Origin: a virus | Lineage: Duplodnaviria; Caudoviricetes | DNA: 54,855 nt | Reading direction: 5' to 3' (one strand) | Virus record (IMG/VR): IMGVR_UViG_3300002144_000245 | Location: 1-54,855 of that record | Shown: positions 4,793 to 26,100 of the stretch, in pieces | How the letters are laid out: each line of letters opens with the position of its first letter | Position numbering within the stretch: the first letter of the stretch is position 1 | Notes under the pieces: generated by a model | Seen by the model: only the letters and a program-made list of their open reading frames with translations | The model's database searches: none | What the model was told of the DNA's origin: nothing | Translations under genes and position numbers: made by a program

Positions 4793-5781
4793 TTTATTTT
4801 TCCCTTTGCGATATCTCGTTGAAGTTGGTCAGCTGCATTTTGTACATCTACGACAGCTTGGTTGATTGGTACATTACGATATTTACCAAGTTTTTTAACT
4901 GCCATAAGTACGATTCTTAATTCTTCTGATGATGGACTTTCATTAATAACTGCCTCACCAAACATCTCATCATCAAAATAAAGAGCACTCATGTAATCTT
5001 TTAGTTTTGCGTTTTTAAAATCACCTTTAAACTTTTCTAATGCTCTACGAGCTTTTAAAGCCGATTTAGCTGGAACAACAAAGAATCCATTCTTTTCACC
5101 ACCCTTTTTCGTTTGTGCTGAAACTACCTGAGCCTTCATTCCAGTTCCAGCAGAATTACCTTTTGGGTCAATTAAAGTCCACTTATCACCTTCGTTTAAA
5201 ATGTTGGTTAGTTTCATTGAGGTTTTTTCAGTAACTACTGATTCTTTAGCGAAGTCTTTTGCGTTCTCTTTGTCTTCTTTATCAACGGATGTTACTTTGT
5301 ACTCTTTACCATCAACGTCAAATGAATCATCGCCAGCAGCGATAGCTTTAGCTCTATTAGCTCCAAACTCGTTACCTTCTTTGATTTCGTAATATTTACC
5401 AAGAACTTCACCAATTTCATCATAAGTTGACTCTAATCGTTGTTGAAGAGTGTTTACTTCTTTGATTGTATTAGAGAATATTTTGAATGACTCATTCATA
5501 GACTTCATGTGTCTACCAACAGTTACTTTATCAAACCAATCGCCGGTTTCTTTAATGGTAACTTTATTAGCGTTCTCTACGATACCTTTAATAGATTCGT
5601 GGATTTCGGACAAATTACCTTTATGAGAAATCATCTCACCAAATTGTCTATAAGCAGAAACTGCTTCAACAAACGCTCTTTTTTCTTCGTTTGTCATTCC
5701 TTTTTCTTTCTCTTCACCAACATTCATTCGTCTATAATCTAAATGTTGAGATTCGTTAAGTAGGTCTTTTAGTTTTTTCAT
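4789..5781 (-). CDS. Modular hypothetical protein, candidate internal head polyprotein
   Basis: MKKLKDLLNE leader; IKE, ESVVTE, ILNE and VINE junctions; shares DNA segments with ORF 13862..15166. Confidence 0.65.
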   Translation of the reverse strand: MKKLKDLLNESQHLDYRRMNVGEEKEKGMTNEEKRAFVEAVSAYRQFGEMISHKGNLSEIHESIKGIVENANKVTIKETGDWFDKVTVGRHMKSMNESFKIFSNTIKEVNTLQQRLESTYDEIGEVLGKYYEIKEGNEFGANRAKAIAAGDDSFDVDGKEYKVTSVDKEDKENAKDFAKESVVTEKTSMKLTNILNEGDKWTLIDPKGNSAGTGMKAQVVSAQTKKGGEKNGFFVVPAKSALKARRALEKFKGDFKNAKLKDYMSALYFDDEMFGEAVINESPSSEELRIVLMAVKKLGKYRNVPINQAVVDVQNAADQLQRDIAKGKIK

Positions 5782-6422
5782 AGTTTTACTCCAAAGTCAC
5801 ATTCACAATATCCACCAACTTCACACATGATATCTCTCATAAGTGTATTAGCTTTTTTGTATTTATAAGTATTTGATTTTTTGGTAACACCTTCTTTGAT
5901 GATACCTTCATTTTTTGGAGATAGGAAAGCGCCTTGAGTTGATGGGTTTGATACAAAATCCCAACAGATTAAATCAAAATCACTTTCTACGGCAACTGTT
6001 TCTTCTCCTATTTGTTTAACCGAGCCCATACCTCTTGATGATATACCAACAGTACACCCAGCTTTAATAATTTCTTGTAAGATTGTACCGGCCGGCGTAT
6101 TTAAAATTTCAACTGTACCAATAACATCATCACCCTTCCATTCAACAGAACGAACGATGTGAGATGTATTCTTTAATTCTACAATTGCTGATTCAGGATG
6201 GTCAAGTTCACCGTATGCACGATTTTCTTTAATCTCCCTACCTATATATTTCTTAACTTCTCGTTCAAGAATATTACGAGGGTACACTCTACCATTTTGG
6301 TTTTTAGCATCGGCTCTTTGTAGTACACCACTAACTAAAAATCGACCATGCTTTTCAGCTGACTCTTTTAACATAGTGGGTGTTACGTTGAACACTATAG
6401 TATCTACGAGTAATTGTTTCAT
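5778..6422 (-). CDS. Prohead core protease, T4 gp21-like
   Basis: GVLQRADAKNQNGRVYP, GELDHP, SH and GISSRGMGS motifs. True start is probably the ATG at 6422 (TAATG overlap, GGGAG RBS), not 6434. Confidence 0.95.
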   Translation of the reverse strand: MKQLLVDTIVFNVTPTMLKESAEKHGRFLVSGVLQRADAKNQNGRVYPRNILEREVKKYIGREIKENRAYGELDHPESAIVELKNTSHIVRSVEWKGDDVIGTVEILNTPAGTILQEIIKAGCTVGISSRGMGSVKQIGEETVAVESDFDLICWDFVSNPSTQGAFLSPKNEGIIKEGVTKKSNTYKYKKANTLMRDIMCEVGGYCECDFGVKL

Positions 6423-6562
6423 TAATTCTCCCAAACTTTCTTTTTACGATATAAGTCAAAGAAGACTCTAGCTAATTCTCTACGAATCAACATACGAATT
6501 TCCTCAAGGTCTTTGACATCGAGTTCTTCGTTAATTTGTTTCTTATTACAACCACATCCCAT
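6422..6562 (-). CDS. Small 46-aa hypothetical protein below the ORF-track cutoff
   Basis: MGCGCNKKQINEELDVKDLEEIRMLIRRELARVFFDLYRKKKVWEN; fills the gap exactly and its TAA overlaps the protease ATG. Confidence 0.75.
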   Translation of the reverse strand: MGCGCNKKQINEELDVKDLEEIRMLIRRELARVFFDLYRKKKVWEN

Positions 6563-7946: not shown

Positions 7947-9818
7947 TTAAATTATGTCATCCAATAGATTTGTTTCATCTAACATCCCAACTTCTTTCGT
8001 TTCAACATCTTTTAAAGACTCAGTAATGATACTTGAATTTTTTAATTTTCTCTTTTTCAAAGATGTTTTTAAAGTTTTGATTGACTCATACGCTATTGAT
8101 GAACCTTTATACTTGTGGTAGGTAGAGTCGGTTCCTACATCAGTTTTTCTTCCTAATGGGTCTCTACCCATAGCAGCTTTGTCGGTTCCATAGGTACCAC
8201 CTTCTTCAGGTCTACCGGCGCCATCAAATCCACCTTCAGGAGAACCGCCCTCATCGGTTGGGGCTCCCTCATCTTCACCACCCTCTAAATTAAGTGCAGC
8301 TAAGTCATGCGGGGTTCCAAAAGATTCTCCTGTTTTAACAGGGTCGTTACCTTCAGATGCGATTTGTTCTTGTCTGAATCCAAGTTTTAAGTCATTAATA
8401 ACTTTAGCTTGTTCCATTCGCCACTCATCATCCGACATATTAAAGATGTGTTTATACATCCATTCTTGAGAAACCATTTTGAGCTCTTTCATGTCAGAAA
8501 CTAATGATACTTTTTCAGACCATAGTGCGGCTTTCTCTTGTTCGTATATAATAGATGGATTGGTAAGTTCTAATTCAAAGTTTACTAAGTCTGCGTTCTC
8601 ATACCCTTGTGAATACAAATGAACGATAGCAATTTTGTGAAGTTCTGAAAGAACAATACGTTGAATTCGTTCGACAGTTCTTGCAAAACGAATATCTTGT
8701 TGTGCAAGTGTAGCTTTACCTTCAACACCCTCTTCATACCCAATGAATGCCTTTGGAACTTTAAGAGCCGCCATCATTCTATTCTTTAGGTATTCGATAT
8801 CCTCGATACCACCAAACTCCATACCATTTAGGGTATCAATTTCGGTTCCACTCTGACCACCTCTAACTGGTAAGTAGTAATCTTCCAACATATTCATCAA
8901 GTTAAACTTGAGGTTGTAGTCTCCCGTGTCTTGGTTAAGGTAAGGGACTTTCTTCATTTGGTCAATAATACTTCTCATATGATTATCAACCTCAGCAGGT
9001 GGAATGTTACCTACATCAATTTTAAATACTCGTTTTTCAGGCGCCCGCATGATTCGGTGAATCATCATAGCATCTTCCATTAGAGTTAATTGTTTCCATG
9101 TCTTACGAGCACCTTCCAACAAAGAACGACCATATGGTAGGAAGTTTGTGTCAGCCATTAAACGGAAATGTGCTACTTGGTAGAATTCAAAATAATAACT
9201 GTTTGTTTTTGTATTACCAGTAAATGGTGAATTCATTGAGTTTAATTTAAATCTAACCTCATATGGATTTTCGTCGTTAAATCCCTCTTCACGTTCAACT
9301 TCATACGCTGACATTGGTGATACGTTTACGATTCCAATCCCATCTTCAATATCAAGATGAAGATAGTAGTCACCATATTTGTTCATACCACGAATCCATG
9401 ACCAAAGGTTAAATTCGATATTTAAAACATCATAAAATAAATTATGAAGAATTTTTTTGACATTTTCATCTGAAGATTTGATTCGAATGATGTCGCCCAT
9501 ATCATTCTTTAAAGTACACTCATCTGAATAGATGTCTAATATAGAAGCAATGATGGAATCTTTGTCCATAGCTTCATAGTCCGTGTATAATTCTAATTTG
9601 TTTGAATGATAGTTGAATTGGTTATTATATGTTTCCCAATTTCTACGAGAGGTGTGCATTCTACCAAATCTATCATAGTAAGATGTGCCGCGAATGTTAC
9701 CATCCGACTGAAGCCGTTGTGTATCAACTGCCGCTGTTCTTCCTTTACCAATGCGTCTTACGACTACTTGGGTAGCGAATAGTTTTTTAAGCCTACTAAA
9801 TAACGTTGTGTCTGCCAT
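7947..9818 (-). CDS. Portal protein, T4 gp20-like
   Basis: YGRSLLE.ARK.WKQL.LMEDAMMIHRIMRAPEKRVFKIDVGNIP, MLEDYYLPVRGG.SGTEIDTL, ALKVPK, DIRFAR. Confidence 0.96.
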   Translation of the reverse strand: MADTTLFSRLKKLFATQVVVRRIGKGRTAAVDTQRLQSDGNIRGTSYYDRFGRMHTSRRNWETYNNQFNYHSNKLELYTDYEAMDKDSIIASILDIYSDECTLKNDMGDIIRIKSSDENVKKILHNLFYDVLNIEFNLWSWIRGMNKYGDYYLHLDIEDGIGIVNVSPMSAYEVEREEGFNDENPYEVRFKLNSMNSPFTGNTKTNSYYFEFYQVAHFRLMADTNFLPYGRSLLEGARKTWKQLTLMEDAMMIHRIMRAPEKRVFKIDVGNIPPAEVDNHMRSIIDQMKKVPYLNQDTGDYNLKFNLMNMLEDYYLPVRGGQSGTEIDTLNGMEFGGIEDIEYLKNRMMAALKVPKAFIGYEEGVEGKATLAQQDIRFARTVERIQRIVLSELHKIAIVHLYSQGYENADLVNFELELTNPSIIYEQEKAALWSEKVSLVSDMKELKMVSQEWMYKHIFNMSDDEWRMEQAKVINDLKLGFRQEQIASEGNDPVKTGESFGTPHDLAALNLEGGEDEGAPTDEGGSPEGGFDGAGRPEEGGTYGTDKAAMGRDPLGRKTDVGTDSTYHKYKGSSIAYESIKTLKTSLKKRKLKNSSIITESLKDVETKEVGMLDETNLLDDII

Positions 9819-9883: not shown

Positions 9884-11458
9884 TTAAAGTAACCATGTTA
9901 AATCTACGTCGTTTCCATGACCATCTCGTTGGGACCATGGGTTGTCTCCAAGAGTTCTATTATTATATACACCAGCACCTGCTTTTGTAATATTAGTCAA
10001 GGTGGTTCTGCTTAAATCAATACCCTGCTGTCTTAATTTTAATGCAGTATCACGTACCCACAACCCAGTTGAGAATGACATAACTAAGTCATCATTATAA
10101 CCTCGCTGTGCTTCCGCTCTACTACCATTCCATATGAAGACAAACAGTTCCTCTATAAGTCGCTTAGAATGGATGATAGGGGTACGTTCTCTCATGTAAG
10201 TATCTAATTTAGAGACTACTAAGGGTCGAGTTCTACTTGTCATTGAGAATCCAGGAACCATATCTTCTTTTCGTTTCAAATCAAAACCTTTGCGTAGGTG
10301 GATATCTTCATCGATATAACCAGCATCTCTATATGAGTAATATAAGTTTTGATAATTTCTATCAATTACTTCTTGTATTACAGCCCAACCAATATTTGCG
10401 TTTTCAATTACCAACATTGCGTTGTTCCACTCAGATGCGATTGATGTAAGCATAGCTCCAAATTGTTTGGTTTCTATCTTACCTTTATATTCCGCAACCT
10501 GTTCTACGGATTCAATATCAATTACATGAAACGCTGAGTAGTCGGTTGAATCTCCACGAGCAACGTCTGCTACAACAACATAATCACGTGAGTAGTTTGG
10601 GTAGTCCCATAACCAATAGTTACCATCAAATCCCCTCTTTTCCAATGGGTCTTTGACATAAGTCTCTTCGTACCATTGTAATGTAGCACCTTCAACTACA
10701 CTATAACCAGATGAAATAAAATCACAATCACATTCTTGTGCTGCTCCTTTATCACCTAACAATGTTGATTGTTCTTCACGCCATAGTTGGTTTCTATCAG
10801 GATGAACCGACCAATGTAATTCAATAGGATTCCATGTATCACCACTCATTGCCTGAACCCATACCTTATGGAACCAGTTACCTACACCATTTGGAGTAGA
10901 AAGTACAATAGCCCCACCACCTGTTGATAACGTGGATTGTGCAGATGTCCATATACTTTCAATATTATCAATGAAAGCGGCCTCGTCTATAATCAACATT
11001 GAAAGTGCTTCAGAACGACCAGCATCACCAGCGGCTGAAGTTGCTTTGATTTGAGACCCATTTTTTAATCGGAGAGATAATTTATTATCCTCTTCAGTTT
11101 GTCCCCTCAACCACGTTGGTAAGTTTTGATGCATGAAACGAACCTTTGTTACAAGATTCTTTGCTACCTCTTGTTTGGTAGCGATTACCAAAACATTCTT
11201 ATCTTCATGAAATAACATCAACCAAAGTGAATATCCAGCTGAAAGTGTTGAGATACCTAATTGACGAGATTTGAGAATAACATTAAATCTATGCTTCTCA
11301 ACCTCATACATTAAATTTTCTTGGAAGTCGTATAAGTTAAAAAGTATTTTACCACGAGATGGGTGTTGAATATAACAATACTTCTTAAAAAAATATACTG
11401 GGTCTTTAGCACATTTAACGTACTCTTCTTTGATTAACTCTTTTAGAGATTTTGCCAT
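9884..11458 (-). CDS. terL: Terminase large subunit, T4 gp17-like
   Basis: LYDFQ, KSRQLGIST, IIDEAAF, LSTPNG, VADVARGDSTDYS and NDDLVMS motifs. Confidence 0.96.
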   Translation of the reverse strand: MAKSLKELIKEEYVKCAKDPVYFFKKYCYIQHPSRGKILFNLYDFQENLMYEVEKHRFNVILKSRQLGISTLSAGYSLWLMLFHEDKNVLVIATKQEVAKNLVTKVRFMHQNLPTWLRGQTEEDNKLSLRLKNGSQIKATSAAGDAGRSEALSMLIIDEAAFIDNIESIWTSAQSTLSTGGGAIVLSTPNGVGNWFHKVWVQAMSGDTWNPIELHWSVHPDRNQLWREEQSTLLGDKGAAQECDCDFISSGYSVVEGATLQWYEETYVKDPLEKRGFDGNYWLWDYPNYSRDYVVVADVARGDSTDYSAFHVIDIESVEQVAEYKGKIETKQFGAMLTSIASEWNNAMLVIENANIGWAVIQEVIDRNYQNLYYSYRDAGYIDEDIHLRKGFDLKRKEDMVPGFSMTSRTRPLVVSKLDTYMRERTPIIHSKRLIEELFVFIWNGSRAEAQRGYNDDLVMSFSTGLWVRDTALKLRQQGIDLSRTTLTNITKAGAGVYNNRTLGDNPWSQRDGHGNDVDLTWLL

Positions 11459-12528: not shown

Positions 12529-13860
12529 TTACCATTTACGACACGACCAATAATTGGCCTTCCATCTTGGGCCTGGTTCATCACAATTCATTCTTGCCCT
12601 GAATGATTTACGGGCAGCTGGATTGTCTTTTTTAATGACCATTCCCTTTTGTCCAAAGTTTACTTTAACAACATTACCTTTGTCGTTGTTTACATATACT
12701 TTGAATTTTTTAACATCACCTTGCATTATCTTACCAAGTTTTACGGCTCTACCTTGGTATTCAGCTTCGTTAAGTGATGGTGTGTATTCCTTCATAAATT
12801 GAACAAATTCTTTTACATCTTGATAGTTCTCTACATCATACTCTTCAATGGAGTCATCACCACCATCTGCATTATTTACAATATTTAAATAATCCTCAGC
12901 TTTGGTAATCAATGATTGAACCCATGGTTCTAAGTTTGAACGGCTGTTTAATTTATCTAATAATTGTTGAGCGTGTTCGACTGAACTTTGTAGTTGGTCA
13001 ACGGCCATATCTGCATCTGATTCAGATGATTCTTTCTTCAATCTACTTTTCTCAGCTCTACCTCTATTTGTAGATTCGGCTTCGAATCCAACTATCTTCC
13101 CACTTTTATGAGATGCATCTTTACCATCACCATTACCATAAGTACCTTTATCTCTATTGTACTTATTTAGCTCAGCTCTGTATTTCTTTGATTTATCTGA
13201 TGATTGAAATTTCTTATACTCATCTTTGTAATCTCGTTTAGTTTCTTCAGTTACCGATTCTAATAGTTTATGTAATTCTTTAACTAATGGTGATGCTGCT
13301 GTAAATAACTTAGGATTTTTTTTAGAGCTATCATTCTTTAGGTTTTTAATTAAATTTTGAATGGAATCTATTACATCTAATATTTCAGAATTTTTAACGC
13401 TACCTTCGTTTACTGATTCATTAAATATACTATACTTTTTTATACCTAATTTACTTACCATTTTTTCAATAGTATTGTAATCACTATCTGGATGATTTCC
13501 ATTTCCAAGTATAATTTCTATCTCTCCTTTAGTTACAGGATGAGAACTAACGTTTACTTTATACTTTTTATTTATTTTTTGAACGTAGTTTCGTAATACA
13601 TCTATTTTATCTTCGGTAACTACTGATTCATTCTTTGGAACACAATTAGGGACTTCTTTGCCATCCTTCATTTTCATTCCAACCATCTCATATCCATCCC
13701 AACATGGGTTATCAGTAGCTTCTTCATTTGTAAATGATTTAACATATGGATTCGATACTACTTGACCTAACTCAGGAACAAAGCCATACTTTTCTTCCAT
13801 AAATGTTTTTACATTATGGTATTCTTCTCTGATGAGTTGTTTAAGTTGCGATTCGTTCAT
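12529..13860 (-). CDS. Modular polyprotein-like protein (CWDGY module, HNH-like module, C-terminal Cys/Trp module)
   Basis: Modules separated by ESVVTE, ESVNE, ESVTE, ESSE and LNE; PCWDGYEMVG..KEVPNCVP, GDGKDASH..NR, ARKSFRARMNC..YWSCRKW. Confidence 0.7.
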   Translation of the reverse strand: MNESQLKQLIREEYHNVKTFMEEKYGFVPELGQVVSNPYVKSFTNEEATDNPCWDGYEMVGMKMKDGKEVPNCVPKNESVVTEDKIDVLRNYVQKINKKYKVNVSSHPVTKGEIEIILGNGNHPDSDYNTIEKMVSKLGIKKYSIFNESVNEGSVKNSEILDVIDSIQNLIKNLKNDSSKKNPKLFTAASPLVKELHKLLESVTEETKRDYKDEYKKFQSSDKSKKYRAELNKYNRDKGTYGNGDGKDASHKSGKIVGFEAESTNRGRAEKSRLKKESSESDADMAVDQLQSSVEHAQQLLDKLNSRSNLEPWVQSLITKAEDYLNIVNNADGGDDSIEEYDVENYQDVKEFVQFMKEYTPSLNEAEYQGRAVKLGKIMQGDVKKFKVYVNNDKGNVVKVNFGQKGMVIKKDNPAARKSFRARMNCDEPGPRWKANYWSCRKW

Positions 13861-13861
13861 A

Positions 13862-15166
13862 TTATACTTTATGTCGTGTTGGCTTCATTGAGGTTTTTTC
13901 AGTAACTACTGATTCGCTAGTTAATCTTTTTTTGTATTTTTTAGCCATCTTCATCGCTACGTTTACTATACTTTTAAAATCTTTAGCTTCTTCCATTGCG
14001 ATTTGGCCAGCGTCATAACTTTCAATACTAACAAAGTACCCTTTGTCATCACGACGACCAACATACATCATCATCTCTTCACCACCGTCAAATAGGAAAT
14101 CACTACTACCACCATGATATCTAGCATCACCTACTTCAGAGTCCACACCTACACCTGTTGCTCTTTCTAAAGATTTTCTAACAAGTTCCTGCTCTTTATC
14201 TGATAACATTGGTGTTGCTCTCTCATTTAACGTAGAAGAAAGTTTCATTGAATTTTTCTCTTTAATTGACTCCTTAGCGAAGTCTTTTACGTTCTCTTTG
14301 TCTTCTTTGTTAACGGATTCGTTCTTCATAAGTTTGTATGCCATATGTCCCATTGCTACAATACCACTCTTTACAAACTTATCTTTATTAGATTGTTGTT
14401 TAAGTGCATCATATACTTGAACCATTAGAGATGCTGATTGCATATCTACTCTTACCTTCTTATTTGATTTAGTATCAACTACTAAAGCGTTTTGTTTATC
14501 TTTTACAATTTTTCTTAATTGAGTGATAACTTCAGGTTCAGCAGCTGCTTCTTTTATTGATTCAGTATGTAAACTTTTGAATGTAGATTGTAACCACTTC
14601 ATAAGGTCTTTGTTTTTATAATCAAAGTCAGGATGTTCTTTTCTGAACTCTTTCATGAAATCAAGAAATGACCCTGCGTTTTGAATCATTATATCTATGT
14701 TTTTCATTACACCTTCAGTTGTAAGTTTATTAGTCACTTTAATTCCCTCTTCAAGTTTGTGCACAGGATATTTTTTTCCATTAAATTCAAATTCATCCAA
14801 ACCTTCTTTTCTTGCGTTATAAAGTGCGCCTGTAAATGCATTACCCTCAGTTAAACCTTGTTCTTGGTTTTGTGTATCAGCATATTCTTGAGCCTGGTCT
14901 TTAGTAGCAAAACTCTTTACTCTAACTTCACCTTCCCACACAGTCCATGGTGTGAATGGGTTAGATTGTTTATCAAACTTCACAACATAGTTGTCAGTTG
15001 GGTCTGCTGTGTGGTCTTCATTTACAAGGTTCACAGGCACTAATGCAGTTCCGCTATTTGTTAACTTCATAACATAGTGAACTCCATTTATTACTGTTTT
15101 GTAATCTTTGGGAGTTTTATTCCACTCACCCTTTGTAATACTATGTGTAATTTTAAACTTAGCCAT
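13862..15166 (-). CDS. Modular polyprotein-like hypothetical protein
   Basis: Strong TAAGGAG RBS; junctions LVNE, LTE, ESIKE (x2), TLNE, ESVVTE. Confidence 0.7.
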   Translation of the reverse strand: MAKFKITHSITKGEWNKTPKDYKTVINGVHYVMKLTNSGTALVPVNLVNEDHTADPTDNYVVKFDKQSNPFTPWTVWEGEVRVKSFATKDQAQEYADTQNQEQGLTEGNAFTGALYNARKEGLDEFEFNGKKYPVHKLEEGIKVTNKLTTEGVMKNIDIMIQNAGSFLDFMKEFRKEHPDFDYKNKDLMKWLQSTFKSLHTESIKEAAAEPEVITQLRKIVKDKQNALVVDTKSNKKVRVDMQSASLMVQVYDALKQQSNKDKFVKSGIVAMGHMAYKLMKNESVNKEDKENVKDFAKESIKEKNSMKLSSTLNERATPMLSDKEQELVRKSLERATGVGVDSEVGDARYHGGSSDFLFDGGEEMMMYVGRRDDKGYFVSIESYDAGQIAMEEAKDFKSIVNVAMKMAKKYKKRLTSESVVTEKTSMKPTRHKV

Positions 15167-15176
15167 TAGTTACTCC

Positions 15177-17330
15177 TTAATTAATATAAGCATTTAATTC
15201 GTAATTACCGCTATCCATACCATATACTTGGAATGATAATGATTTTTTTTGTGGTTTACCTGCTTTCGAAAGACCTATAGTGAACGAGTTTGTTTTACCA
15301 ATACTTGGTCTTGAACGAGAATATTTACCACCCATAGCAACTTGACTATTCCAATCATCCATATCCACTTCAAATCCACGTTTTTCAACCATTTCCTTTG
15401 CAGTATCTGCGGCTGAAGTGAATGACTTATGGTATACTTGATATTGAGCTTCGTTTACTGATTTGTTGGTTGATTCCGTTTGTATTTCATGTGCAGGTAC
15501 TTCTAGTGAATAATATTGACCGATATCTACAATGTAAAATGGAGAACCTGGTGTTTTACCATCAAAACGAACAATTTTACCCGATTTACCACCACGAAGT
15601 TTTACTTTTGTTCCGGGTTTTAATATAGGAGTTGATGCTTCGTTTACTGATTCATTCTTTATCTTATTATAAAGTGCTTCAACTTTGGGTAATGTTTTAG
15701 TTATTACAGAAATATAATTTAAAACATCTTTATTTAAATCATACGATGGTTTAAATGGTAAAATATTACCGATTGTTCTTCCTATTACAATTCTATCATT
15801 ACCTTCTGAATCCATTACATTAAATGGTAAGTTAGGTTTACCATCCCACATTGGCGTTGCATAGATAAGTAAATCAATACCTTTTTTTTCAAATTCAAAA
15901 GTACCAGACCTACTATCTACATGCAGTTTCCAACCTTTGATATCTTTTCCGTTTAATACTTTTTCAGTTGCTTTTTGTAATTTATCTGCGTACTCGTCAT
16001 CTTTTGAAGATTCGTTTACTGATTCATCTACTTTATATTTGTAGATTACATCACTTCTATCTCGCAATGTAGTCGTGCCATGTTGTAAATCATAGTTTGC
16101 GTTAGCAGATGTTGCTTTAGCAAACTTACCATTCTTTAAGTAGAATGTACCAATACGAGAATTGTTATCATCAGTTACATAAAATACTGCGTTTTTCTTT
16201 TTCTTTGATAATGTAATAATATCAGATAGGTTCTTAGCTTTTATAAACTCACCATATCCTTCGTTAACTACTGATTCACTCATACTTAATATTGCTTTTT
16301 TCTTTTTAAGCATTAGTTTAAGGAACATATCTACTAACTTACCATTCGCATCATCAGTCATACGGTGGGGTCTACCAACGAAATCTTGACCGATACCATC
16401 CATCTTACCTGAACGTTCAAATTTAATCGTTCCGTTTGGGGATTTTATTGCAAAGTCACCCATACCTAAATGTACTAGTTCTGAATTTGGTAATACACCT
16501 TTACTATAGTTTACAAAGTTACTATCTACTATAGTTTGATTTCCAACTCGTTCGTAGTGACCTACATCCTTACCTTCGTTTACTGATTCTTTGAATAATC
16601 TCATACCAACGTTTTCAACTAAGTCTTCTACTTTTTGTCCAAGTGGTCTACCAAGTGTCATCGAGATGTAATATCCAAGTGCATCAACAATTACTTTCCC
16701 ATCCCACTTACAAATAGATGCAATGTCAGCCCCTAATTCATAATGGTACATATTTTCAAGGTCTTTCTTAGCCATTGGGTCACCCTCATACTTTGCTTTA
16801 GGAAATAATTTTGAAACTCTCTTTGCTTCGCTATGGAAGTTAGCGTCACCTAAAGCGCCCATCAAAATGTGCATTATAGCCCATTGGTGATTAGCCCCAC
16901 CTTTTTTTAAGTCTTTAAGGTGCTTGTCTAAAAGAGCTTTAACTTTTTTGTTTTCAGCAGGCCCTTCGGATAGAATATTTTCTACGATATTTGATAAATT
17001 CATGGATGTCTCCGTTTTTTCTAATAAGTTTAATAATGAGTCTTCTTTAATTTTAAATGAGTATCCAGCACCATGGTAAGTACTGTCAATTTCAAAATCT
17101 AATCCTGTTTTTGTTTTTAGTCGGACAATTGTTAGAGTTCTGAAATCTTCATCAGCATATCGCTCATTACCAAGTTGTGTTTTGATATGAGTGATTGTAT
17201 CTAAATCTTTAGATGTTTTTGGCAAAAGAATAATATTACCATTTTTAATGGATGTGTTAAATTCTACTTTACCATTTCGGTAGTCAAATTTAACTTTACC
17301 TTCTGACAATATTGATGATTTTAATTTCAT
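15177..17330 (-). CDS. Seven-module polyprotein-like hypothetical protein
   Basis: MKLKSSILSE leader, then modules delimited by ILSE, ESVNE, ESVVNE, ESVNE, ESVNE and KSVNE. Confidence 0.72.
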   Translation of the reverse strand: MKLKSSILSEGKVKFDYRNGKVEFNTSIKNGNIILLPKTSKDLDTITHIKTQLGNERYADEDFRTLTIVRLKTKTGLDFEIDSTYHGAGYSFKIKEDSLLNLLEKTETSMNLSNIVENILSEGPAENKKVKALLDKHLKDLKKGGANHQWAIMHILMGALGDANFHSEAKRVSKLFPKAKYEGDPMAKKDLENMYHYELGADIASICKWDGKVIVDALGYYISMTLGRPLGQKVEDLVENVGMRLFKESVNEGKDVGHYERVGNQTIVDSNFVNYSKGVLPNSELVHLGMGDFAIKSPNGTIKFERSGKMDGIGQDFVGRPHRMTDDANGKLVDMFLKLMLKKKKAILSMSESVVNEGYGEFIKAKNLSDIITLSKKKKNAVFYVTDDNNSRIGTFYLKNGKFAKATSANANYDLQHGTTTLRDRSDVIYKYKVDESVNESSKDDEYADKLQKATEKVLNGKDIKGWKLHVDSRSGTFEFEKKGIDLLIYATPMWDGKPNLPFNVMDSEGNDRIVIGRTIGNILPFKPSYDLNKDVLNYISVITKTLPKVEALYNKIKNESVNEASTPILKPGTKVKLRGGKSGKIVRFDGKTPGSPFYIVDIGQYYSLEVPAHEIQTESTNKSVNEAQYQVYHKSFTSAADTAKEMVEKRGFEVDMDDWNSQVAMGGKYSRSRPSIGKTNSFTIGLSKAGKPQKKSLSFQVYGMDSGNYELNAYIN

Positions 17331-17949: not shown

Positions 17950-20802
17950 TTAGTAGAAAAGACCAAGTATTTGATTCAATGGTGCAAACGTGCCTGTTAG
18001 TTTATATGTCGCACCCTTATATGTAAATACAATACCTTCGTTTGGTACAATTTTATCTTTACCACCAATTGAATTTAATCGTTGTAACTCTAACTTTAAT
18101 TTTTCAATTTTCTTTACATCACCACTCTTCTTAACATCTTTGATTGTTTGGTCTAATCTCTTTTTCATATCACGAAGTGCTGAATCGGGGTTTACTGTTA
18201 ATGCGGATGACATGAATGAAAGAACTTCAGCACCAACACCTAAGAAGATATCTTCAAATGGTCGAATGTTATCCTTTGCAATTTTAGCGTGGTCATTCTT
18301 ATCTACACTCTGAGCCCATGATAGTGTTTTGTCATCAGAAATAGATTTACTATCTAATCGAGTTGATTTATCATAAAATGCCCATCGTTTAACCAATCCC
18401 ATTTTGGTTTTGTTATCTAATGTAGATGGTGAATTCTTGTCTACGTATGATTCCCACCATCGTTGGTGGTATTCAGCAACACCATCTGAATCTTTTAATT
18501 TAAACTCACTCTGAAGCTTAGATAGTTGTGATGTAAATTTACTTTGTTTAGAAGATAATTCTTCGGACTTTGGTAACTGAACCACGGGCGGACCTTGAAT
18601 AGTATACTTTGACTGAACATCAGCGTTAACTTGTTTAATCATCCCAGCAAGTATTTTAGCGTCTGATGTGTCAGCTCCTATAGCAACACCCTTCTCATCA
18701 TATTCCATTGTTCCATGAAAAACAAGTAGCGGCTGACCGTAAGGAACTACGTTCACAGATGTCGGCCAAATTACTTCAAGGTTCATAAATTTCTTACCCT
18801 GTTTGAATATTTTATCTCGTTGTGACGATGATAATCCGCTGATGGCTGATGTCAAATCTTTCATAGCATAATTGTAAGCATCAGTTAACCCACCCCTACC
18901 TTGGAACTTTGAAGCAATACCACTAATGTCCAATGCCTTCTCACCAGAGTTAGCAAGGTGTCCTTTGTTACGAGCTGCTATAAGACCTTTTCCATCTTTC
19001 CATGAAATAGCAAGAGCTTGTCCATCGGTTTTTTCTCGTGTGAATTCTAATTTACCTTGAAGAGCATTTGATATGATTATTTTCAAATCACCAAATGTTA
19101 AATTCATTTCAGTATCAAATGGATGATGCATATGACCATACGCTCCTCCTTCAGTTAATATATTTTCTGCTAGGGATTTATCTTTTGGTTTTGAGATGTA
19201 TTTTTTAGCCATTTCAATAAATGATGGGGTTATGTGTTCTATCACAAAACTTAATGCAGTAGTTAACTGTTCTTCTTCTATTGTATCATTACCCTGCTCT
19301 CCCATCGAAGGCCACTCTCCAGTTGGGAATTTATCTCCCATTAATGATTTGGCTAATATGGCTCTAGTCAAATGTAATCCTTCATGAGCTAATTGTTCTA
19401 TTACTGCTGTTTGGGCCCCTGCTTTTTTAGCTTTTCCTGCTAATCGTCTACCATTGGTCCAAAAATATATATCTTGTCCATCATTCATAGTGTTAACTAA
19501 TCCGTAGGCATATGCATCGTCTGGGGTTTCATTATATTCTTGAGCATCTTTTAAAGATAATCCTGTGTATTTTGCTACATTATCCCCCAACTCAAATACA
19601 CCTTGACTATTAGGAGACATCGCTAATGTAATATCTTCTGAGATTTTAGTTCCATCGAAAAGTTCAAATGATATATTTATTTTCTTTACTTGTACTTCGG
19701 TTTTAACGTCATTCAATACACCTTCAGTATGGAGTTGTTGCGTTTTTAATTCTTTTTGTTTTTGTTTTTCGGTTGGGATTTGAGCGGTCAGGTTTTGTAT
19801 ATCCTTTGGTTCAGCGAAGTTTACAAACTCCATACCCAATCTAAGTGCTACTCGTTTGATATGGTCTGCCCATTTCTTATATCCAGCTCTACCTGTGATG
19901 TCTTTACCATAACGAACAGTCTGGCCATCTCTCGTGTCTCCTGTTGGGAAAAATGATACGGAGTATTTGTCAGGCATTGGTCTGCCATCATGAGCAAATA
20001 CCGTGTCAACCTCTGGCATTAAGTATGATACAATTTCATATCCCAATTTACCAACTGATTTTTCCATTTCAGATTTAAATGTTTTCATGTTACCATAAAA
20101 CGCAGCAGGTCCATCATCAACAATACCCTTTCCACTTATGGGTATCGTGCTTGATTCTGATATAATTTTAGTGATATCAATTGACTGAAAGAAGGATTCC
20201 ATTACGGATTCCACTTTAGCCATCTTTGAGGAAATTAAATCAAAAATCTTTTGGTTAAATTTTGGATATACTGATTTAAAGAATTTAATTCGTTTTTCTT
20301 CGTCTGAAGTAGACATACCAGCACGTACTTCTGTACCCGATATACCATTACCTTGTGATGGGGATGTGTAAACGTATCCACCATCTTTTACAGCAATACT
20401 TACGTCACCCTTATATGGTTGAAAATAATTACCACCCAATCGACCACCATCTTTTTCGCCAACTACAGTTATAAACGCAGTCGTGTTTTCATCAAACTTA
20501 CCAAGAATTTCTTTTGGAGCATATGGATTTTTTACTTGAACAATTTTGTTTTTTGGAATACCAAACATCGTGCTCATAATGTCAACCTTTTCCTTAAAAC
20601 GGAATGGTGATTTTGGTAACTCTACTTTATCGGAGGTTCCAATGTATACATTATCCTTACCAAACTTCTTTACCAAGTGTGCGTATGTTGCGTAGTGACC
20701 GGAATGGAATGGGTGAAACCTTCCCACATACGTTACGACTGTTTTTTTAATGTCTTCGGTAAGGATTGATTCCATCACCCATTTGTTTATTAATTGTCCC
20801 AT
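17950..20802 (-). CDS. Multidomain protein: HxGH nucleotidyltransferase, unknown module, HExxH module, ATP-dependent ligase-like domain
   Basis: GRFHPFHSGH and ISGTEVR; LAHEGLH; EKTDG, EGIV and YKLTG; domains separated by ILTE/ISE/HTE/ILTE. Confidence 0.75.
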   Translation of the reverse strand: MGQLINKWVMESILTEDIKKTVVTYVGRFHPFHSGHYATYAHLVKKFGKDNVYIGTSDKVELPKSPFRFKEKVDIMSTMFGIPKNKIVQVKNPYAPKEILGKFDENTTAFITVVGEKDGGRLGGNYFQPYKGDVSIAVKDGGYVYTSPSQGNGISGTEVRAGMSTSDEEKRIKFFKSVYPKFNQKIFDLISSKMAKVESVMESFFQSIDITKIISESSTIPISGKGIVDDGPAAFYGNMKTFKSEMEKSVGKLGYEIVSYLMPEVDTVFAHDGRPMPDKYSVSFFPTGDTRDGQTVRYGKDITGRAGYKKWADHIKRVALRLGMEFVNFAEPKDIQNLTAQIPTEKQKQKELKTQQLHTEGVLNDVKTEVQVKKINISFELFDGTKISEDITLAMSPNSQGVFELGDNVAKYTGLSLKDAQEYNETPDDAYAYGLVNTMNDGQDIYFWTNGRRLAGKAKKAGAQTAVIEQLAHEGLHLTRAILAKSLMGDKFPTGEWPSMGEQGNDTIEEEQLTTALSFVIEHITPSFIEMAKKYISKPKDKSLAENILTEGGAYGHMHHPFDTEMNLTFGDLKIIISNALQGKLEFTREKTDGQALAISWKDGKGLIAARNKGHLANSGEKALDISGIASKFQGRGGLTDAYNYAMKDLTSAISGLSSSQRDKIFKQGKKFMNLEVIWPTSVNVVPYGQPLLVFHGTMEYDEKGVAIGADTSDAKILAGMIKQVNADVQSKYTIQGPPVVQLPKSEELSSKQSKFTSQLSKLQSEFKLKDSDGVAEYHQRWWESYVDKNSPSTLDNKTKMGLVKRWAFYDKSTRLDSKSISDDKTLSWAQSVDKNDHAKIAKDNIRPFEDIFLGVGAEVLSFMSSALTVNPDSALRDMKKRLDQTIKDVKKSGDVKKIEKLKLELQRLNSIGGKDKIVPNEGIVFTYKGATYKLTGTFAPLNQILGLFY

Positions 20803-23127: not shown

Positions 23128-26100
23128 TTATATATATGATACTTTAGAGAACCCACGAACTTTATTGATATCAATTATTTGGTCCACCATGTCTCTTGTC
23201 TTGTCAATGTGAGATATTGTGATGATAAAATCGAACTGAGTCTTTAAGTAATCAAATAATAAATATAGAGAATTAAAGTTGTCCGTGTCTAATGAACCAA
23301 ATCCTTCGTCAATAGCGATAAAGTTTGGTCGTGGTAAATTGGATACGTTAATCAACGCAGTTCTAATTGCTATAGATGAAATGAACTTTTCCATACCACT
23401 TGTAAGCTCTAATGGCCAAAACTCAGTATCACCATATGCAATATATGAGTTGATATTTTTACCATCAGTATTAAGTAGGATTTCAAAATCAACTATCGGT
23501 TGTAAGATGTTGTTAATTTCTATTTCTAACTTTGGTAATACATCTGAGATTAAATTGTATGGAATACCATCACGTTTCACACATTTCAGATAGTACTCAT
23601 ACCCATCAAACTTAGTTTCCATTTCACGAAGTTTATTGATAGACTGGTTAACCATCTCGATTGTCTTTTCGGCTAATTTAATTTCCGAATTGACATTCAT
23701 AAGTTCATCAGTTACTTCTTTTATTGAATCATCTAATTGACTTCGAGTTACTTTAAAAGATTTTATCTTTTCTATAATCACCTTATTATGAGCTACCGCC
23801 TGTTCTTGGTCTTTAGCTTTTTGTAAGGTTCTCTCTAATTCTTTTATTTCAGAATCGTAATCTTTTACTAAGGCAATACATGAGTCGTATAATTTATTTA
23901 ACCTTACCCATTCCTTATCTAATTTTAAAAGTTCGTCGGAATGGTCATTCCAAAGTTTCAACTCCGTAGTGACATCACACTTACTACGGATGTCCAAAAT
24001 TTCCAATCGTTTAGTTACTACTTTAGAATAGTCACTCCCTAATGATTTTATCTTTTTTTCTAAAGTATCTGCCTGTTTTGCAAATGGTGTATTTTTGTTT
24101 TCAATACAATGATTACACTTATCATCAAATGTCAATGACCCGATACCATCTAAATGTTCTTTAGCATGAATTATCTCAGACTCCAATTTATCTAATTGGG
24201 TTCCCATTTCATTAAATTCAGTATCATACAATTTATATTGTATTTCTTTTTCTCTAAGTGAGTTAATGTCAATTTTATCAAGTTTAGATTGAATATCCAA
24301 TTGTAACGTTTCAATCTTTTTAACTTCTGCTAGATTAAAATTACAATCGGTGGATTGTATATCTCTGATTTTTTGAAGTGACTCCAATTCCAATTGGATT
24401 GTTTGTAAATCACGAATGTCTTCAACGGGTTTTAAATTACCCATGTCAAACTCGATTTTAGTATTAACTACATCGCGGTTGGTTTCTAATTTAGATTTTT
24501 TATTTTGGTATTTTATTAACGACCCATCAGTTGATGTCAATACTTCTTCCGCCTCAGCTAACTGAGTTGGTAAGTCTTGATTCTTGTAATCTTTTAGAAG
24601 AGCTGATAGTTCTCTAATCTCCTCACTTGCAATTTGATACAACCCCTCAAACACATCCATGTCCAAGAATTGAGCAAGAAGCTCTTTACGTTCTTTTTGT
24701 GACTTGTCAATAAATCCACTATTATTTGATTGAGTTGACATAGCGGTTAGTACAAAGTCATCATACGTTCCAACATACTCTCTAATGAGTGAGTTGGTGT
24801 CCCTACGCTGTTCTCCATTAAGAGACTCTACGACCCCATCTATAATACGATAGAAGTTTGTGTCTACCTTTACAGTACCTCGCTTAGGAGACTTCCTAGC
24901 GGCTCTCTCAATTACGTAGTCGACTCCATTAAGTTCAAATATGAATTTACAATCATATGACATCTTTGAGTAATTCAATACATCCTCAGCCTTGGAAGTT
25001 CGTGAACATTTATCAAAGATACAAAATGATAAAGCATCCCAAAGGGTTGACTTACCACTTGCGTTTGGTGCAAAGATACCATATGCCCCTTTCATGTTTG
25101 TAAAGTCAATAATATTATTAGGACCATACGAAAACATATTTGAAAACTCAAAAGTCTTTGGTATCCATATTGAATTTGTAATTACACGTTGGCTCCCTAA
25201 CTTCGCATTGATATCAGCATTAATTGATTTAACCACCTCAAGTTGATTTTCGGTGAGATGGTCCGTTTCCATAAGTAAATCTTCTATTAACTTATTTTGA
25301 AATGCAACATCACGCACGTTCTGAAGAGTAATCTTACCATGCTCACCTCCATCTTTACGAGTAATAACTTTTTGTATAGTCAGTTCCTCAATTTTCCTAC
25401 CTTTTTTAAGTTCAGCTATAAGCTTATTTAATTCAGAGGTTTTTGTGTTTTTAACACGAACTCGCATCCTTGGTCGATTGGGAATATGTGAATTTGAAAC
25501 TACCTTACCATCTTCAATATCAACAGTAACATAACCAAACTCGTTTGGTATAGTTACAAATTTACTTGTTAGGGTTTCCATATCCCACACCAATATACCA
25601 TGGTCAGGGTATAACGACTCAGCGTGATTTTGCATAATCAAAGAACCTGGATACATAATATTAGAATTACCCAATACAGCGTTGTTGGGTTTGTGAATAT
25701 CACCCAACAATACTAAATCATACCCATCAAAGTTTGATACGTTTATTTTTTTATTTTCAATAACAAACCCATGGTCGGTTATAATTTTATCAACGGGTCC
25801 GTGAAACAATGCAATCTTGTGGTCGCATAATGCGACATCAAGTGGTGATGGGAATCCTGGTGAATCGTCAAACACCGATTGGTGTGTGAATATACAATTA
25901 GCAATATGCCACGAGCCACTATCACGGATGTAGTGTAATTTTGGAAGCCTAAGTGCATTAACAATTGGCTGTAACGCATCCATACGAGATGGGTTGCTTA
26001 GGTTAGCGTCGTGGTTTCCTGGAATTACAATAGTCGGTAGTAAGTCTGATAGTCGAGAAAAGAACTCTTGTGTTAAATTAACTACCTCAGGTGACATATC

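What the first reader, a model, noticed from the sequence alone, without database searches (positions are those of the whole stretch)
12529..17330. Cassette-built polyproteins joined by conserved ESVNE/ESVVTE linkers: candidate shuffleable, protease-processed capsid cargo system
Seen: three consecutive ORFs (plus 4430..4792 and 4789..5781) are chains of unrelated small domains joined by one linker family. ORF 15177..17330 divides into a 10-aa leader plus modules of 112, 130, 105, 83, 124, 63 and 90 aa at ILSE/ESVNE/ESVVNE/ESVNE/ESVNE/KSVNE. The linker is conserved as DNA: ttcgtttactgatt occurs exactly at 13405, 15450, 15639, 16011 and 16575, and ttc(a/g)gtaactactgattc at 4454, 5227, 13612 and 13898, always in frame. 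Known: T4 gp21 prohead protease cleaves after Glu in (I/L/V)-x-E sites, and T4 internal proteins such as IPI* are packaged, processed and injected as anti-defence effectors. A gp21 homologue is encoded at 5778..6422. Inference: the phage packages polyproteins that are cut into many independent injected proteins, and the linker DNA doubles as microhomology for in-frame gain, loss and exchange of cassettes.
Basis: partly seen in the sequence, partly recalled or inferred. Interest (0 to 1): 0.92.

Follow-up and report, generated by a model that had tools for sequence, protein, structure and literature searches.

The report
Shuffled polyprotein cargo genes, marine phage
A marine T4-like phage strings many unrelated small protein domains into long proteins joined by one short conserved linker that looks like a cutting site for the phage's head protease, and related phages swap, gain and lose the domains exactly at that linker.

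Summary
Five ORFs beside the head genes (15177..17330, 13862..15166, 12529..13860, 4789..5781, 4430..4792) carry 11 ESV(V)(N/T)E/KSVNE linkers. The two DNA motifs occur 5 and 4 times (expected 0.01 and 0.00), always in frame, and nowhere else in the 54,855-bp contig.

The linkers are true module borders:
- Homology breakpoints against 150 global relatives fall within 7 aa of a linker 56.5% of the time (13% by chance).
- AlphaFold models give folded domains, with confidence collapsing at the leader and at each of the five linkers modelled.
- Related IMG/VR phages show module insertions and deletions whose junctions lie inside the 15-nt linker.

Linker codons are far more uniform than codon usage predicts (63% versus 5%).

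The linker (aliphatic-x-Glu, then Ala/Gly/Ser) and the ~10-aa N-terminal leaders, which the major capsid and scaffold proteins also have, fit the T4 gp21-type protease encoded at 5778..6434. Single-module relatives carry a leader where polyproteins carry a linker.

Cleavage, packaging and injection are inferred, not shown. All modules lack known families or folds. I found no published description. Verdict: a new variant of the T4 internal-protein/capsid-targeting theme, interest 0.8.

The parts
15177..17330 (-). P717, a 717-aa polyprotein: 10-aa leader (17301..17330) plus seven modules. Modules: aa 11-122, 123-252, 253-357, 358-440, 441-564, 565-627, 628-717.
   Evidence: Homology breakpoints cluster at the module borders. 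AlphaFold models give folded domains separated by low-confidence linkers.
13862..15166 (-). P434, a 434-aa multi-module protein with no N-terminal leader and its own AAGGAG ribosome-binding site. It has one ESVVTE linker, a degenerate NESVNK, and leader-type sites (LTE107, LEE140, IKE206, IKE303, LNE315).
   Evidence: tblastn HSP ends cluster near these sites.
12529..13860 (-). P443, a 443-aa polyprotein. It has a 12-aa leader (MNESQLKQLIRE), three linkers (ESVVTE, ESVNE, ESVTE), an SLNE site at aa 365, and a basic 78-aa C-terminal module (12532..12765).
   Evidence: Relatives keep aa 1-54 and 275-443 adjacent; the window has extra modules in between.
4789..5781 (-). P330, directly downstream of the protease. 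It has leader MKKLKDLLNE, a conserved N-terminal module (aa 11-185), a double linker ESVVTE-KTS-MKLTNILNE (5191..5244), and a basic C-terminal module.
   Evidence: 479 relatives; many share only the N-terminal ~55%.
4430..4792 (-). P120: leader MINLKSLLNE, a 103-aa acidic module, an ESVVTE linker and a 7-aa tail.
16575..16589 (-). ESVNE linker DNA (GAATCAGTAAACGAA on the coding strand). Identical copies lie at 13405..13419, 15639..15653 and 16011..16025; the KSVNE variant lies at 15450..15464.
16260..16277 (-). ESVVNE linker of P717 (aa 352-357).
13898..13915 (-). ESVVTE linker DNA. Copies lie at 4454..4471, 5227..5244 and 13612..13629. The related ESVTE linker lies at 13246..13260.
16965..17009 (-). 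Internal leader-type linker of P717 (aa 108-122, ending ILSE). Analogous internal leader copies lie at 5191..5226 (P330) and 14222..14257 (P434).
   Evidence: (pLDDT<50 at aa 107-122).
5778..6434 (-). Prohead protease, a T4 gp21 homologue (Peptidase_S77); the proposed processing enzyme.
   Evidence: Pfam 1.2e-31; PHROG head maturation protease 4.8e-51; PDB 5JBL 1.8e-20.
1255..2886 (-). Major capsid protein (Gp23 family). Its N-terminus MNTKSLLNE|S carries the same leader as the cargo ORFs.
   Evidence: Pfam 3.4e-79.
2918..3898 (-). Acidic scaffold-like protein. Its N-terminus MKSDLLKE|A matches the leader pattern.
   Evidence: No family hit; the role is inferred from composition and position.
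5239..5290 (-). 52-nt segment 90% identical to 14267..14318. It encodes KEDKEN.KDFAKES just upstream of the linkers in P330 and P434.
   Evidence: family D5; also D3 and D6.

Best explanation
These are capsid-cargo polyproteins of a marine T4-like phage.

Proposed mechanism:
1. A ~10-aa N-terminal leader, also present on the major capsid and scaffold proteins, takes each chain into the assembling prohead core.
2. The S77 prohead protease then cuts after the Glu of every (E)S-V-(V)-N/T-E linker and of the leader-type L/I-x-E sites. This releases 50-175-aa folded domains inside the head.
3. By analogy with T4 internal proteins, these domains travel into the host with the DNA.

The same linker is conserved as a 15-nt DNA word. 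It therefore also acts as an in-frame recombination joint, through which domain cassettes are inserted, deleted and exchanged, both between phages and between the two cargo loci.

Status of each step:
- Shown here: modularity, borders at linkers, exact cassette indels at linkers, and DNA-level linker conservation.
- Predicted: linkers are flexible inter-domain segments.
- Inferred: targeting, cleavage, retention in the head, ejection, and effector function.
For: (1) Motif specificity. The two DNA motifs occur 5 and 4 times against 0.01 and 0.00 expected, all in frame and only in these ORFs.

(2) Linkers are evolutionary borders.
- P717 has 1,403 relatives among 50%-identity representatives.
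- In the best 150 of them, 56.5% of 246 internal HSP ends lie within 7 aa of a linker, against 13.0% by chance. Within 15 aa the figures are 82.9% and 26.9%.
- Among IMG/VR relatives, 40.7% of 280 unique breakpoints of HSPs at >=70% identity lie within 7 aa, against 8.7%.

(3) Combinatorial architectures. 375 modules fall into 98 families. Examples are 9-30-15-0, 9-4-0, 9-27-28-0, and 2-16-12-21-22 versus 2-16-21-22. Families 1, 3, 10, 12 and 25 occur in both cargo loci.

(4) Exact junctions. In three cases an indel of one or two modules plus one linker has flanks that match right up to the 15-nt linker: L068/L070, L068/L065 and L065/L078.

(5) Linker codons.
- GAATCAGTAAACGAA accounts for 91 of 144 ESVNE linkers (63%), against 5.2% expected from codon usage in the same genes.
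- GTA is used 142/144 times (background 47%) and AGT 0/144 times (background 20%).
- In 34 orthologous module pairs, codons for identical residues are the same in 91.8% of linker positions and 80.2% of module-body positions.

(6) Protease-site form.
- After ESVN the next residue is Glu in 144/145 cases locally and 171/176 globally.
- P1' is Ala 55, Gly 55 and Ser 27 of 185.
- T4 gp21 cuts after L/I-X-E, first seen at a Glu-Ala bond (PMC9026906, section 2.5).

(7) Leaders.
- The leader pattern hits 7 of 55 genes: the major capsid protein, the scaffold, four of the five cargo ORFs, and the terminase.
- T4 internal proteins use 10-19-aa N-terminal capsid-targeting propeptides (PMC9026906, section 2.6).
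- Single-module relatives such as P0103, P0119, P0145, P0125 and P0053 carry a leader ending in x-x-E where polyproteins carry the linker.

(8) AlphaFold.
- For aa 253-564, the pLDDT<50 segments are aa 352-357 (the ESVVNE linker) and aa 410-441 (which includes ESVNE).
- For aa 1-252, they are aa 1-8 (leader), 107-122 (internal leader) and 241-252 (ESVNE).
- pTM is 0.45 and 0.49, which fits independently oriented domains.

(9) Context and conservation.
- P330 and P120 lie between the protease and the scaffold. The other three ORFs lie just upstream of terminase and portal.
- 37 of 37 relatives with >=4 kb upstream of terminase have a multi-linker ORF there. 24 of 26 with >=7.5 kb downstream have one there.
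- Cultured Flavobacterium phage immuto has an 842-aa ORF with the leader MKKLIRIVE and NESVNE/KESLNE sites.
Against: - No proteomic, expression or biochemical datum was available. Cleavage, packaging and ejection are untested.
- P3 of the linker is Val in 176 of 185 cases, whereas the T4 motif quoted is L/I-X-E.
- P434 has no leader and has its own ribosome-binding site.
- The leader pattern also hits the terminase, so it is loose.
- No module matches any family in Pfam, NCBIfam or PADLOC. In PHROGs only P443 matches, and only families of unknown function.
- No module has a fold match at E<=0.001 in PDB or BFVD, so an effector role is pure analogy.
- Methylophilales phage Melnitz carries some of the same modules in leader-bearing fusions without ESVNE linkers.
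- Low pLDDT at linkers could partly reflect alignment depth changing at module borders.
- Counts of linkers and breakpoints include related sequences and are not independent events.
Confidence: 0.6

Rival explanations
1. The chains are sacrificial prohead-core or scaffold components, like T4 gp22, gp67 and gp68. They are targeted and cut at the linkers, but the fragments leave the head or serve only as filler or DNA counter-ions. They are not injected effectors.
For: - They sit in the head-gene cluster, and P330 and P120 lie between protease and scaffold.
- T4 core proteins are cut into multiple fragments that mostly leave the head (PMC9026906, section 2.5).
- Several modules are basic, for example +13 for aa 366-443 of P443.
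- No effector family was recognised.
Against: - The modules are folded 60-175-aa domains, not short peptides.
- Module content turns over completely between phages whose terminases are 84-91% identical. That is not expected of structural filler.
- The same modules exist as free-standing ~80-110-aa ORFs, also in records named Pelagibacter, Roseobacter and T7-like Synechococcus phages. I did not check the capsid type of those phages.
Confidence: 0.15
2. The proteins are not cleaved. They act as intact multidomain proteins, and the linker is kept only as a DNA-level recombination joint or a neutral hinge.
For: - DNA-level conservation exceeds what the peptide requires.
- P434 lacks a leader.
- There is no direct evidence of cleavage.
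Against: - A hinge or a purely DNA-level site does not explain the near-invariant Glu (144/145 and 171/176).
- It does not explain the preference for small residues at P1'.
- It does not explain why the major capsid protein and scaffold share the leader.
- It does not explain why a leader ending in Glu replaces the linker in single-module relatives.
Confidence: 0.12
3. The repeated linker is a by-product of recent duplication plus codon bias and has no function of its own.
For: The genome is AT-rich (34.8% G+C). GAA, TCA and GTA are each the commonest codon for their residue.
Against: - The expected frequency of the commonest 15-mer is 5.2%, against 63% observed. AAC is the minority Asn codon (41%) yet is used in 118 of 144 linkers.
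- The modules the linkers flank are unrelated.
- The linker persists across 1,403 representative clusters.
- Breakpoints concentrate at it.
Confidence: 0.03

Closest known systems
T4 internal proteins (IPI, IPII, IPIII, and Alt) with the capsid targeting sequence, processed by gp21
   Same: - A short N-terminal leader ends in aliphatic-x-Glu.
- The phage encodes an S77 prohead protease.
- Cargo proteins are unrelated to each other apart from the leader, and the loci are hypervariable.
Sources: PMC9026906, sections 2.5 and 2.6; passages of PMC12373910; passages of PMC3012670.
   Different: - T4 cargo proteins are separate genes with one leader each. Here up to seven (eight or more in relatives) unrelated domains are chained behind one leader, with a cleavage-type linker at each joint.
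- The linker is conserved as DNA.
- There is no sequence similarity to any named internal-protein family.
Polyvalent proteins of phages and conjugative elements (Iyer et al. 2017, PMC5512222)
   Same: - Many disparate domains (2-15) sit in one polypeptide.
- They are predicted to be packaged and delivered with the DNA.
- The domains are released by proteolysis, and the analogy to RNA-virus polyproteins is drawn there too (passages).
   Different: - Polyvalent proteins carry embedded peptidases (zincin-like MPTase, C-terminal assemblin-like) and recognisable conflict domains. Here there is no embedded peptidase and no known domain.
- Here the presumed protease acts in trans.
- Here a uniform linker sits at each joint.
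Multiply cleaved head and ejection proteins of giant phages SPN3US and phiKZ
   Same: A gp21-related protease cuts after Glu at a short motif (A-X-E in SPN3US, with Ser preferred at P1'). Some substrates are cut at several sites (PMC10052503, passages).
   Different: In those phages the multiple cuts degrade long propeptides of single proteins. They do not separate a chain of unrelated folded domains. No conserved DNA linker or cassette exchange is described in the passages read.
PeSL cassettes mediating modular shuffling in T4-type genomes (Arbiol et al. 2010, PMC2839356)
   Same: Short conserved DNA motifs flank non-essential genes of T4-type phages and drive insertion, deletion and replacement by recombination (abstract).
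   Different: PeSLs are intergenic promoter-plus-terminator elements that move whole genes. Here the joint is a 15-18-nt coding word, and the units exchanged are protein domains in frame.
Polymorphic toxins with conserved pre-toxin motifs (for example CdiA VENN) and integron cassettes. Recalled; not checked in any call.
   Same: A conserved short border allows variable cassettes to be swapped by recombination.
   Different: These are different organisms, machinery and products. Their borders are not sites for a capsid protease.

Membership tests
Peptidase S77 (T4 gp21 prohead protease), for ORF 5778..6434 | Significant match to the family profile, above the curated cut-off | tested here: met
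   Pfam PF03420: 110.2 bits against a cut-off of 27, E 1.2e-31. PHROG 207 head maturation protease: 4.8e-51.
Peptidase S77 (T4 gp21 prohead protease), for ORF 5778..6434 | Alignment to the solved T4 enzyme, with catalytic His and Ser conserved | tested here: inconclusive
   Aligns to 5JBL at 1.8e-20 over aa 30-175. The conserved blocks GELDHP and SSRGMGS are aligned. Which residues are catalytic is recalled, not taken from a call.
Peptidase S77 (T4 gp21 prohead protease), for ORF 5778..6434 | Position in a T4-type head-gene cluster | tested here: met
   The order on the coding strand is portal (Portal_T4, 7.6e-72), two small ORFs, protease, P330, P120, S21, scaffold-like ORF, Gp23 capsid protein.
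T4-type internal (capsid-targeted, gp21-processed) proteins | N-terminal propeptide of 10-19 aa ending in L/I-X-E | tested here: met
   Met by four of the five ORFs: P717, P443, P330 and P120. Not met by P434. The criterion is taken from PMC9026906.
T4-type internal (capsid-targeted, gp21-processed) proteins | Presence in the virion, cleavage by the prohead protease, and ejection into the host | not testable with these tools
   No proteomic or biochemical tool was available, and I found no virion proteome of a relative in the literature searches.
T4-type internal (capsid-targeted, gp21-processed) proteins | Sequence homology to known internal proteins | tested here: not met
   None of the matches in Pfam, PHROGs or NCBIfam is to a named internal-protein family. 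T4 Ip1-3 themselves share only the leader (PMC12373910), so this feature is weak.
Polyvalent proteins (Iyer et al. 2017) | Two to fifteen disparate domains in one phage-encoded polypeptide | tested here: met
   There are seven modules in P717 and up to nine in relatives, in 98 families.
Polyvalent proteins (Iyer et al. 2017) | Embedded peptidase and recognisable conflict domains (MPTase, ART, ParB, primase and so on) | tested here: not met
   No Pfam family reached its cut-off in 5 window and 10 relative polyproteins, apart from a borderline UPF0128 match in P330 (22.7 bits against a cut-off of 21). That family is uncharacterised and is neither a peptidase nor a conflict domain.
PeSL-type shuffling cassettes | Intergenic promoter plus stem-loop terminator | tested here: not met
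   The linkers are in-frame coding words inside ORFs.

The most novel reading that the evidence does not exclude
Marine T4-like phages run an in-frame cassette system for protein domains, organised much like an integron. One 15-nt word serves two roles: it is the recombination joint, and once translated it is the prohead-protease cut site. Any domain dropped between two such words is therefore automatically targeted, packaged, released and injected. This would let phages draw on a shared ocean-wide pool of small pre-made effectors (more than a thousand 50%-identity clusters) and reassort them into cocktails under one leader.
Probability: 0.4. Interest if true: 0.9.

Novelty: new variant of a known kind. 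Interest (0 to 1): 0.8.

Why it matters
T4 internal proteins are the model for injected anti-defence proteins, but only about ten are reported in T-even phages, and each is a separate gene (PMC12373910, passages).

If this reading holds, three things follow:
- A large uncultured group of marine myoviruses delivers many more such proteins, as polyproteins. The group has 468 terminase relatives in IMG/VR, and P717 has 1,403 representative clusters of relatives.
- The linker gives a simple sequence rule for finding the cargo domains in metagenomes. All of them are currently "hypothetical".
- It would show how one short sequence can couple protein processing to modular evolution.

It would also offer a natural design for loading several proteins into T4-type capsids behind one targeting leader.

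Tried and rejected
- Whole-protein alignment of P717 with 149 hits (A1). Rows for the middle modules were misaligned (about 15% identity), so I did not fold it and used two sub-constructs instead.
- Breakpoint test on all HSPs regardless of identity. It gave only weak enrichment: 14.6% against 6.7% within 5 aa, and 17.6% against 8.9% within 7 aa. The signal sharpens with identity.
- Function of the modules.
  - Pfam, NCBIfam and PADLOC gave no match above a curated cut-off, except a borderline match of P330 to the uncharacterised family UPF0128.
  - PHROGs matched only P443, to families of unknown function.
  - Sub-threshold KOW-like, CarD-RID-like and RraB-like matches were not pursued.
  - Foldseek of both models gave 0 matches at E<=0.001 (PDB; BFVD).
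  - The Atlas returned only viral hypothetical-protein clusters.
  - Of the 120 listed homologues of P330, the named ones are almost all "hypothetical protein".
- T4 late-promoter word TATAAATA. It occurs 14 times against 9.15 expected, which is not enriched, and mostly on the non-coding strand.
- 2A-like ribosome skipping, inteins and RNA elements. I considered these from the sequence only. The linker resembles none of them that I can recall, and I ran no test.
- IMG/VR scan for the 15-mer.
- Complex prediction of protease with substrate, and sequencing-run searches. Not run, because neither could show cleavage.
- Repoila et al. 1994 is not held. It is cited only through PMC12373910 and PMC3012670.
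- Supplementary files were not consulted.


Full report
**Context.** The window is the whole held assembly: one 54,855-bp contig with 34.8% G+C and essentially all genes on the minus strand.
- It carries a T4-type head module: a Gp23-family capsid protein at 1255..2886, a Peptidase_S77 prohead protease at 5778..6434, a T4-type portal at 7947..9818, and a terminase at 9884..11458.
- The nearest cultured phages by terminase are Microcystis phage Mel-JY01 (58.8% identity) and Flavobacterium phage immuto (57.4%).
- IMG/VR holds 468 terminase relatives. The 80 I kept are 84-91% identical. Some sit on contigs of 170-178 kb, so the window is probably part of a larger genome.

**The observation.**
- The two DNA motifs occur 5 and 4 times, against 0.01 and 0.00 expected.
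- All copies are in frame. Together with ESVVNE and ESVTE they give 11 linkers confined to five ORFs.
- P717 divides into a 10-aa leader and modules of 112, 130, 105, 83, 124, 63 and 90 aa.
- The window's modules are unrelated to one another.

**Are the linkers real module borders?** Three independent lines say yes.

First, a global search. An exhaustive profile-free search of 1.84 billion representatives found 1,403 relatives of P717 at E<=0.001.
- Each relative matches one or a few modules, at varying positions in proteins of 109 to 964 aa.
- I re-aligned the best 150. Of 246 HSP ends internal to both partners, 56.5% lie within 7 aa of a linker (13.0% by chance) and 82.9% within 15 aa (26.9% by chance).

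Second, the IMG/VR relatives. In the 80 loci, 112 linker-bearing ORFs split into 375 modules of 98 families, with combinatorial orders.
- Upstream of terminase, examples are 9-30-15-0, 9-54-15-0, 9-4-0, 9-27-28-0 and 9-27-51-0. Others are 11-20-1-47-6-0, 11-36-20-1-6-0 and 11-23-6-0.
- Downstream of the protease, examples are 2-16-12-21-22, 2-16-21-22 and 2-25-83-16-12-84-85-8.
- Families 1, 3, 10, 12 and 25 occur in both loci.
- That splitting uses the motif itself, so I also tested raw HSP ends. For HSPs of at least 70% identity, 40.7% of 280 unique internal ends lie within 7 aa of a linker (8.7% by chance). At 85% identity or more the figures are 53.5% and 10.2%. Over all HSPs the enrichment is weak, 17.6% against 8.9%.

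Third, structure prediction. AlphaFold models of two sub-constructs give confident domains, with confidence collapsing at the predicted cut sites.
- For aa 253-564, the pLDDT<50 segments are aa 352-357 (exactly the ESVVNE linker) and aa 410-441 (ending at the next ESVNE). Mean pLDDT is 78.2 and pTM 0.45.
- For aa 1-252, they are aa 1-8 (leader), aa 107-122 (internal leader-type linker) and aa 241-252 (ESVNE). Mean pLDDT is 79.0 and pTM 0.49.
- Caveat: alignment depth changes at module borders and may contribute to the dips.

**Cassette exchange at the linker.** Three pairs of relatives differ by an indel of one or two modules plus one linker. In each pair the flanks match right up to the 15-nt linker on both sides.
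- L068 has module 12 between two GAATCAGTAAACGAA words. L070 has one word and the same flanks.
- L065 has two extra modules at the first linker of the L068 orthologue.
- L078 has one extra module at the first linker of the L065 upstream polyprotein.
- Module 12, with both of its linkers, sits in the upstream polyprotein of L004 and in the post-protease polyprotein of L065 (82% nucleotide identity).
- In the window, P443 keeps the conserved ends of its orthologues (aa 1-54 and 275-443, adjacent in relatives) and has extra modules in between.

**Is the DNA identity just codon bias?** No.
- Among 144 ESVNE linkers in 81 distinct genes, 91 are GAATCAGTAAACGAA (63%). The codon usage of those same genes predicts 5.2%.
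- Val is GTA in 142/144 (background 47%). Ser is never AGT (background 20%). Asn is the minority codon AAC in 118/144 (background 41%).
- With relatedness partly controlled, in 34 orthologous module pairs, codons for identical residues are the same in 80.2% of module-body positions and 91.8% of linker positions.
- Inside the window, longer linker-adjacent stretches are also shared between the two cargo loci. One is 52 nt at 90% identity (5239..5290 versus 14267..14318). Another is about 32 identical nt around ESVVTE-KTSMK.
- These counts include related sequences and are not independent events.

**Does the linker look like a prohead-protease site?**
- T4 gp21 cuts after Glu at L/I-X-E, first seen at a Glu-Ala bond. 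T4 internal proteins have 10-19-aa N-terminal capsid-targeting propeptides removed at such a site (PMC9026906, sections 2.5 and 2.6).
- The SPN3US homologue cuts at A-X-E with Ser preferred at P1' (PMC10052503, passages).
- Here P3 is Val (176) or Ile (9), P2 is Asn or Thr, and P1 is Glu. P1' is Ala 55, Gly 55 and Ser 27 of 185.
- Without forcing Glu in the pattern, ESVN is followed by Glu in 144/145 local and 171/176 global cases.
- A leader pattern (Met, 3-9 residues, two aliphatic residues, one polar residue, Glu) hits 7 of 55 genes. These are the capsid protein (MNTKSLLNE), the scaffold-like protein (MKSDLLKE), P120, P330, P443 and P717, plus the terminase, which I take as a loose hit.
- Internal copies of the leader follow some linkers: ESVVTE-KTS-MKLTNILNE in P330, and similar sequences in P434 and P717.
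- The P434/P443 gene boundary is a decayed copy of that double linker, with a stop and a start inside it. This suggests that polyproteins grow by fusion of adjacent leader-bearing genes, and split again.
- Most telling, single-module relatives of modules M2, M3 and M7 are 110-184-aa proteins. In them a leader ending in x-x-E sits where the polyproteins have the linker. 48 of the 144 representatives that start with Met match the leader pattern.

**Generality.**
- All 37 relatives with at least 4 kb upstream of terminase have an ORF with two or more linkers there. 24 of 26 with at least 7.5 kb downstream have a linker ORF after the protease.
- Cultured Flavobacterium phage immuto has an 842-aa ORF upstream of terminase with the leader MKKLIRIVE and internal NESVNE and KESLNE sites.
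- Methylophilales phage Melnitz has leader-bearing fusions that contain some of the same modules but no ESVNE linkers.

**What do the modules do?** Unknown.
- Pfam, NCBIfam and PADLOC gave no match above a curated cut-off, apart from a borderline match of P330 to the uncharacterised family UPF0128. PHROGs matched only P443, to families of unknown function.
- Foldseek found nothing at E<=0.001.
- Parts of P443 hit small free-standing ORFs in unrelated marine phages.
- Its basic 78-aa C-terminal module resembles clusters of 80-85-aa viral hypothetical proteins in the ESM Atlas, which is a lead only.
- Homologues of P330 are almost all named hypothetical.
- The injected-effector role therefore rests on analogy with T4 Ip1-3, which inhibit GmrSD nucleases and share only their leader (PMC12373910, passages).

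**Interpretation.** The best reading is that these are prohead-targeted polyproteins, cut by the S77 protease into separate domains, whose linker also serves as an in-frame recombination joint (confidence 0.6 for the whole chain).
- I hold the modularity and linker-centred exchange at about 0.95, cleavage at the linkers at about 0.7, and injection with an effector role at about 0.5.
- Rivals are a processed but discarded core filler (0.15), uncleaved multidomain proteins with a purely DNA-level joint (0.12), and duplication plus codon bias (0.03).

**Novelty.** Full-text searches found no description of such polyproteins.
- The searches covered the linker peptide, prohead protease/polyprotein/internal proteins/capsid targeting sequence, T4-like marine virion proteomes, and polyprotein/ejection/cargo proteins.
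- The library misses most subscription journals, and supplements were closed.
- The closest concepts are T4 capsid-targeted internal proteins, polyvalent proteins (PMC5512222) and PeSL-mediated shuffling (PMC2839356, abstract).
- I class this as a new variant of a known kind.

Noticed in passing
4053..4349 (-): A ribosomal protein S21 homologue (Pfam 1.6e-14) sits inside the head-gene cluster, between P120 and the scaffold-like gene. Its N-terminal extension contains a 21-nt tandem duplication (4289..4330).
   Followed up: partly
9884..11458 (-), first 13 codons: The terminase N-terminus (MAKSLKELIKEEY) resembles the leader of P443 (MNESQLKQLIREEY) and matches the leader pattern. It may be chance, or a trace of recombination with a cargo gene.
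   Followed up: no
17950..20802 (-): This 950-aa ORF has weak matches to nicotinamide-nucleotide adenylyltransferases at aa 21-89 (NCBIfam, below cut-off). It starts with a 16-aa stretch ending ESILTE and has an internal ENILTE|G, so it may be another leader- and linker-bearing fusion. Melnitz has a leader-bearing homologue fused to cargo-type modules.
   Followed up: partly
13862..15166 (-) and 15167..15176: P434 has no leader but has a strong AAGGAG ribosome-binding site 7 nt before its ATG. In relative L009 its N-terminal module is internal to a polyprotein. How, or whether, P434 reaches the head is unexplained.
   Followed up: partly
4402, 7936, 9850, 12502 (+ strand): TATAAATA, read as TATTTATA on the coding strand, recurs in the short intergenic gaps of the head module. 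Overall it is not enriched (14 occurrences against 9.15 expected).
   Followed up: no
23128..26298 (-): A single 1,056-aa ORF combines a calcineurin-like phosphoesterase domain with SMC/AAA_23 domains. It looks like a fused Mre11/Rad50-type (gp47/gp46-like) nuclease.
   Followed up: no
482..1144 (-): A PhoH-like gene (Pfam 1.8e-50) lies next to the capsid gene. As I recall, this is typical of marine phages.
   Followed up: no
whole window: Related IMG/VR contigs reach 170-178 kb, while the held assembly is 54.9 kb. It has no tRNA and its first and last ORFs are open, so it is probably a partial genome.
   Followed up: partly
P0260, P0261, P0264 (relatives of P330): Some relatives carry modules with precomputed Pfam hits (PF19944, PF05354). 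One source names two of these proteins RNA polymerase subunit K/omega, which is a possible lead to module function.
   Followed up: no
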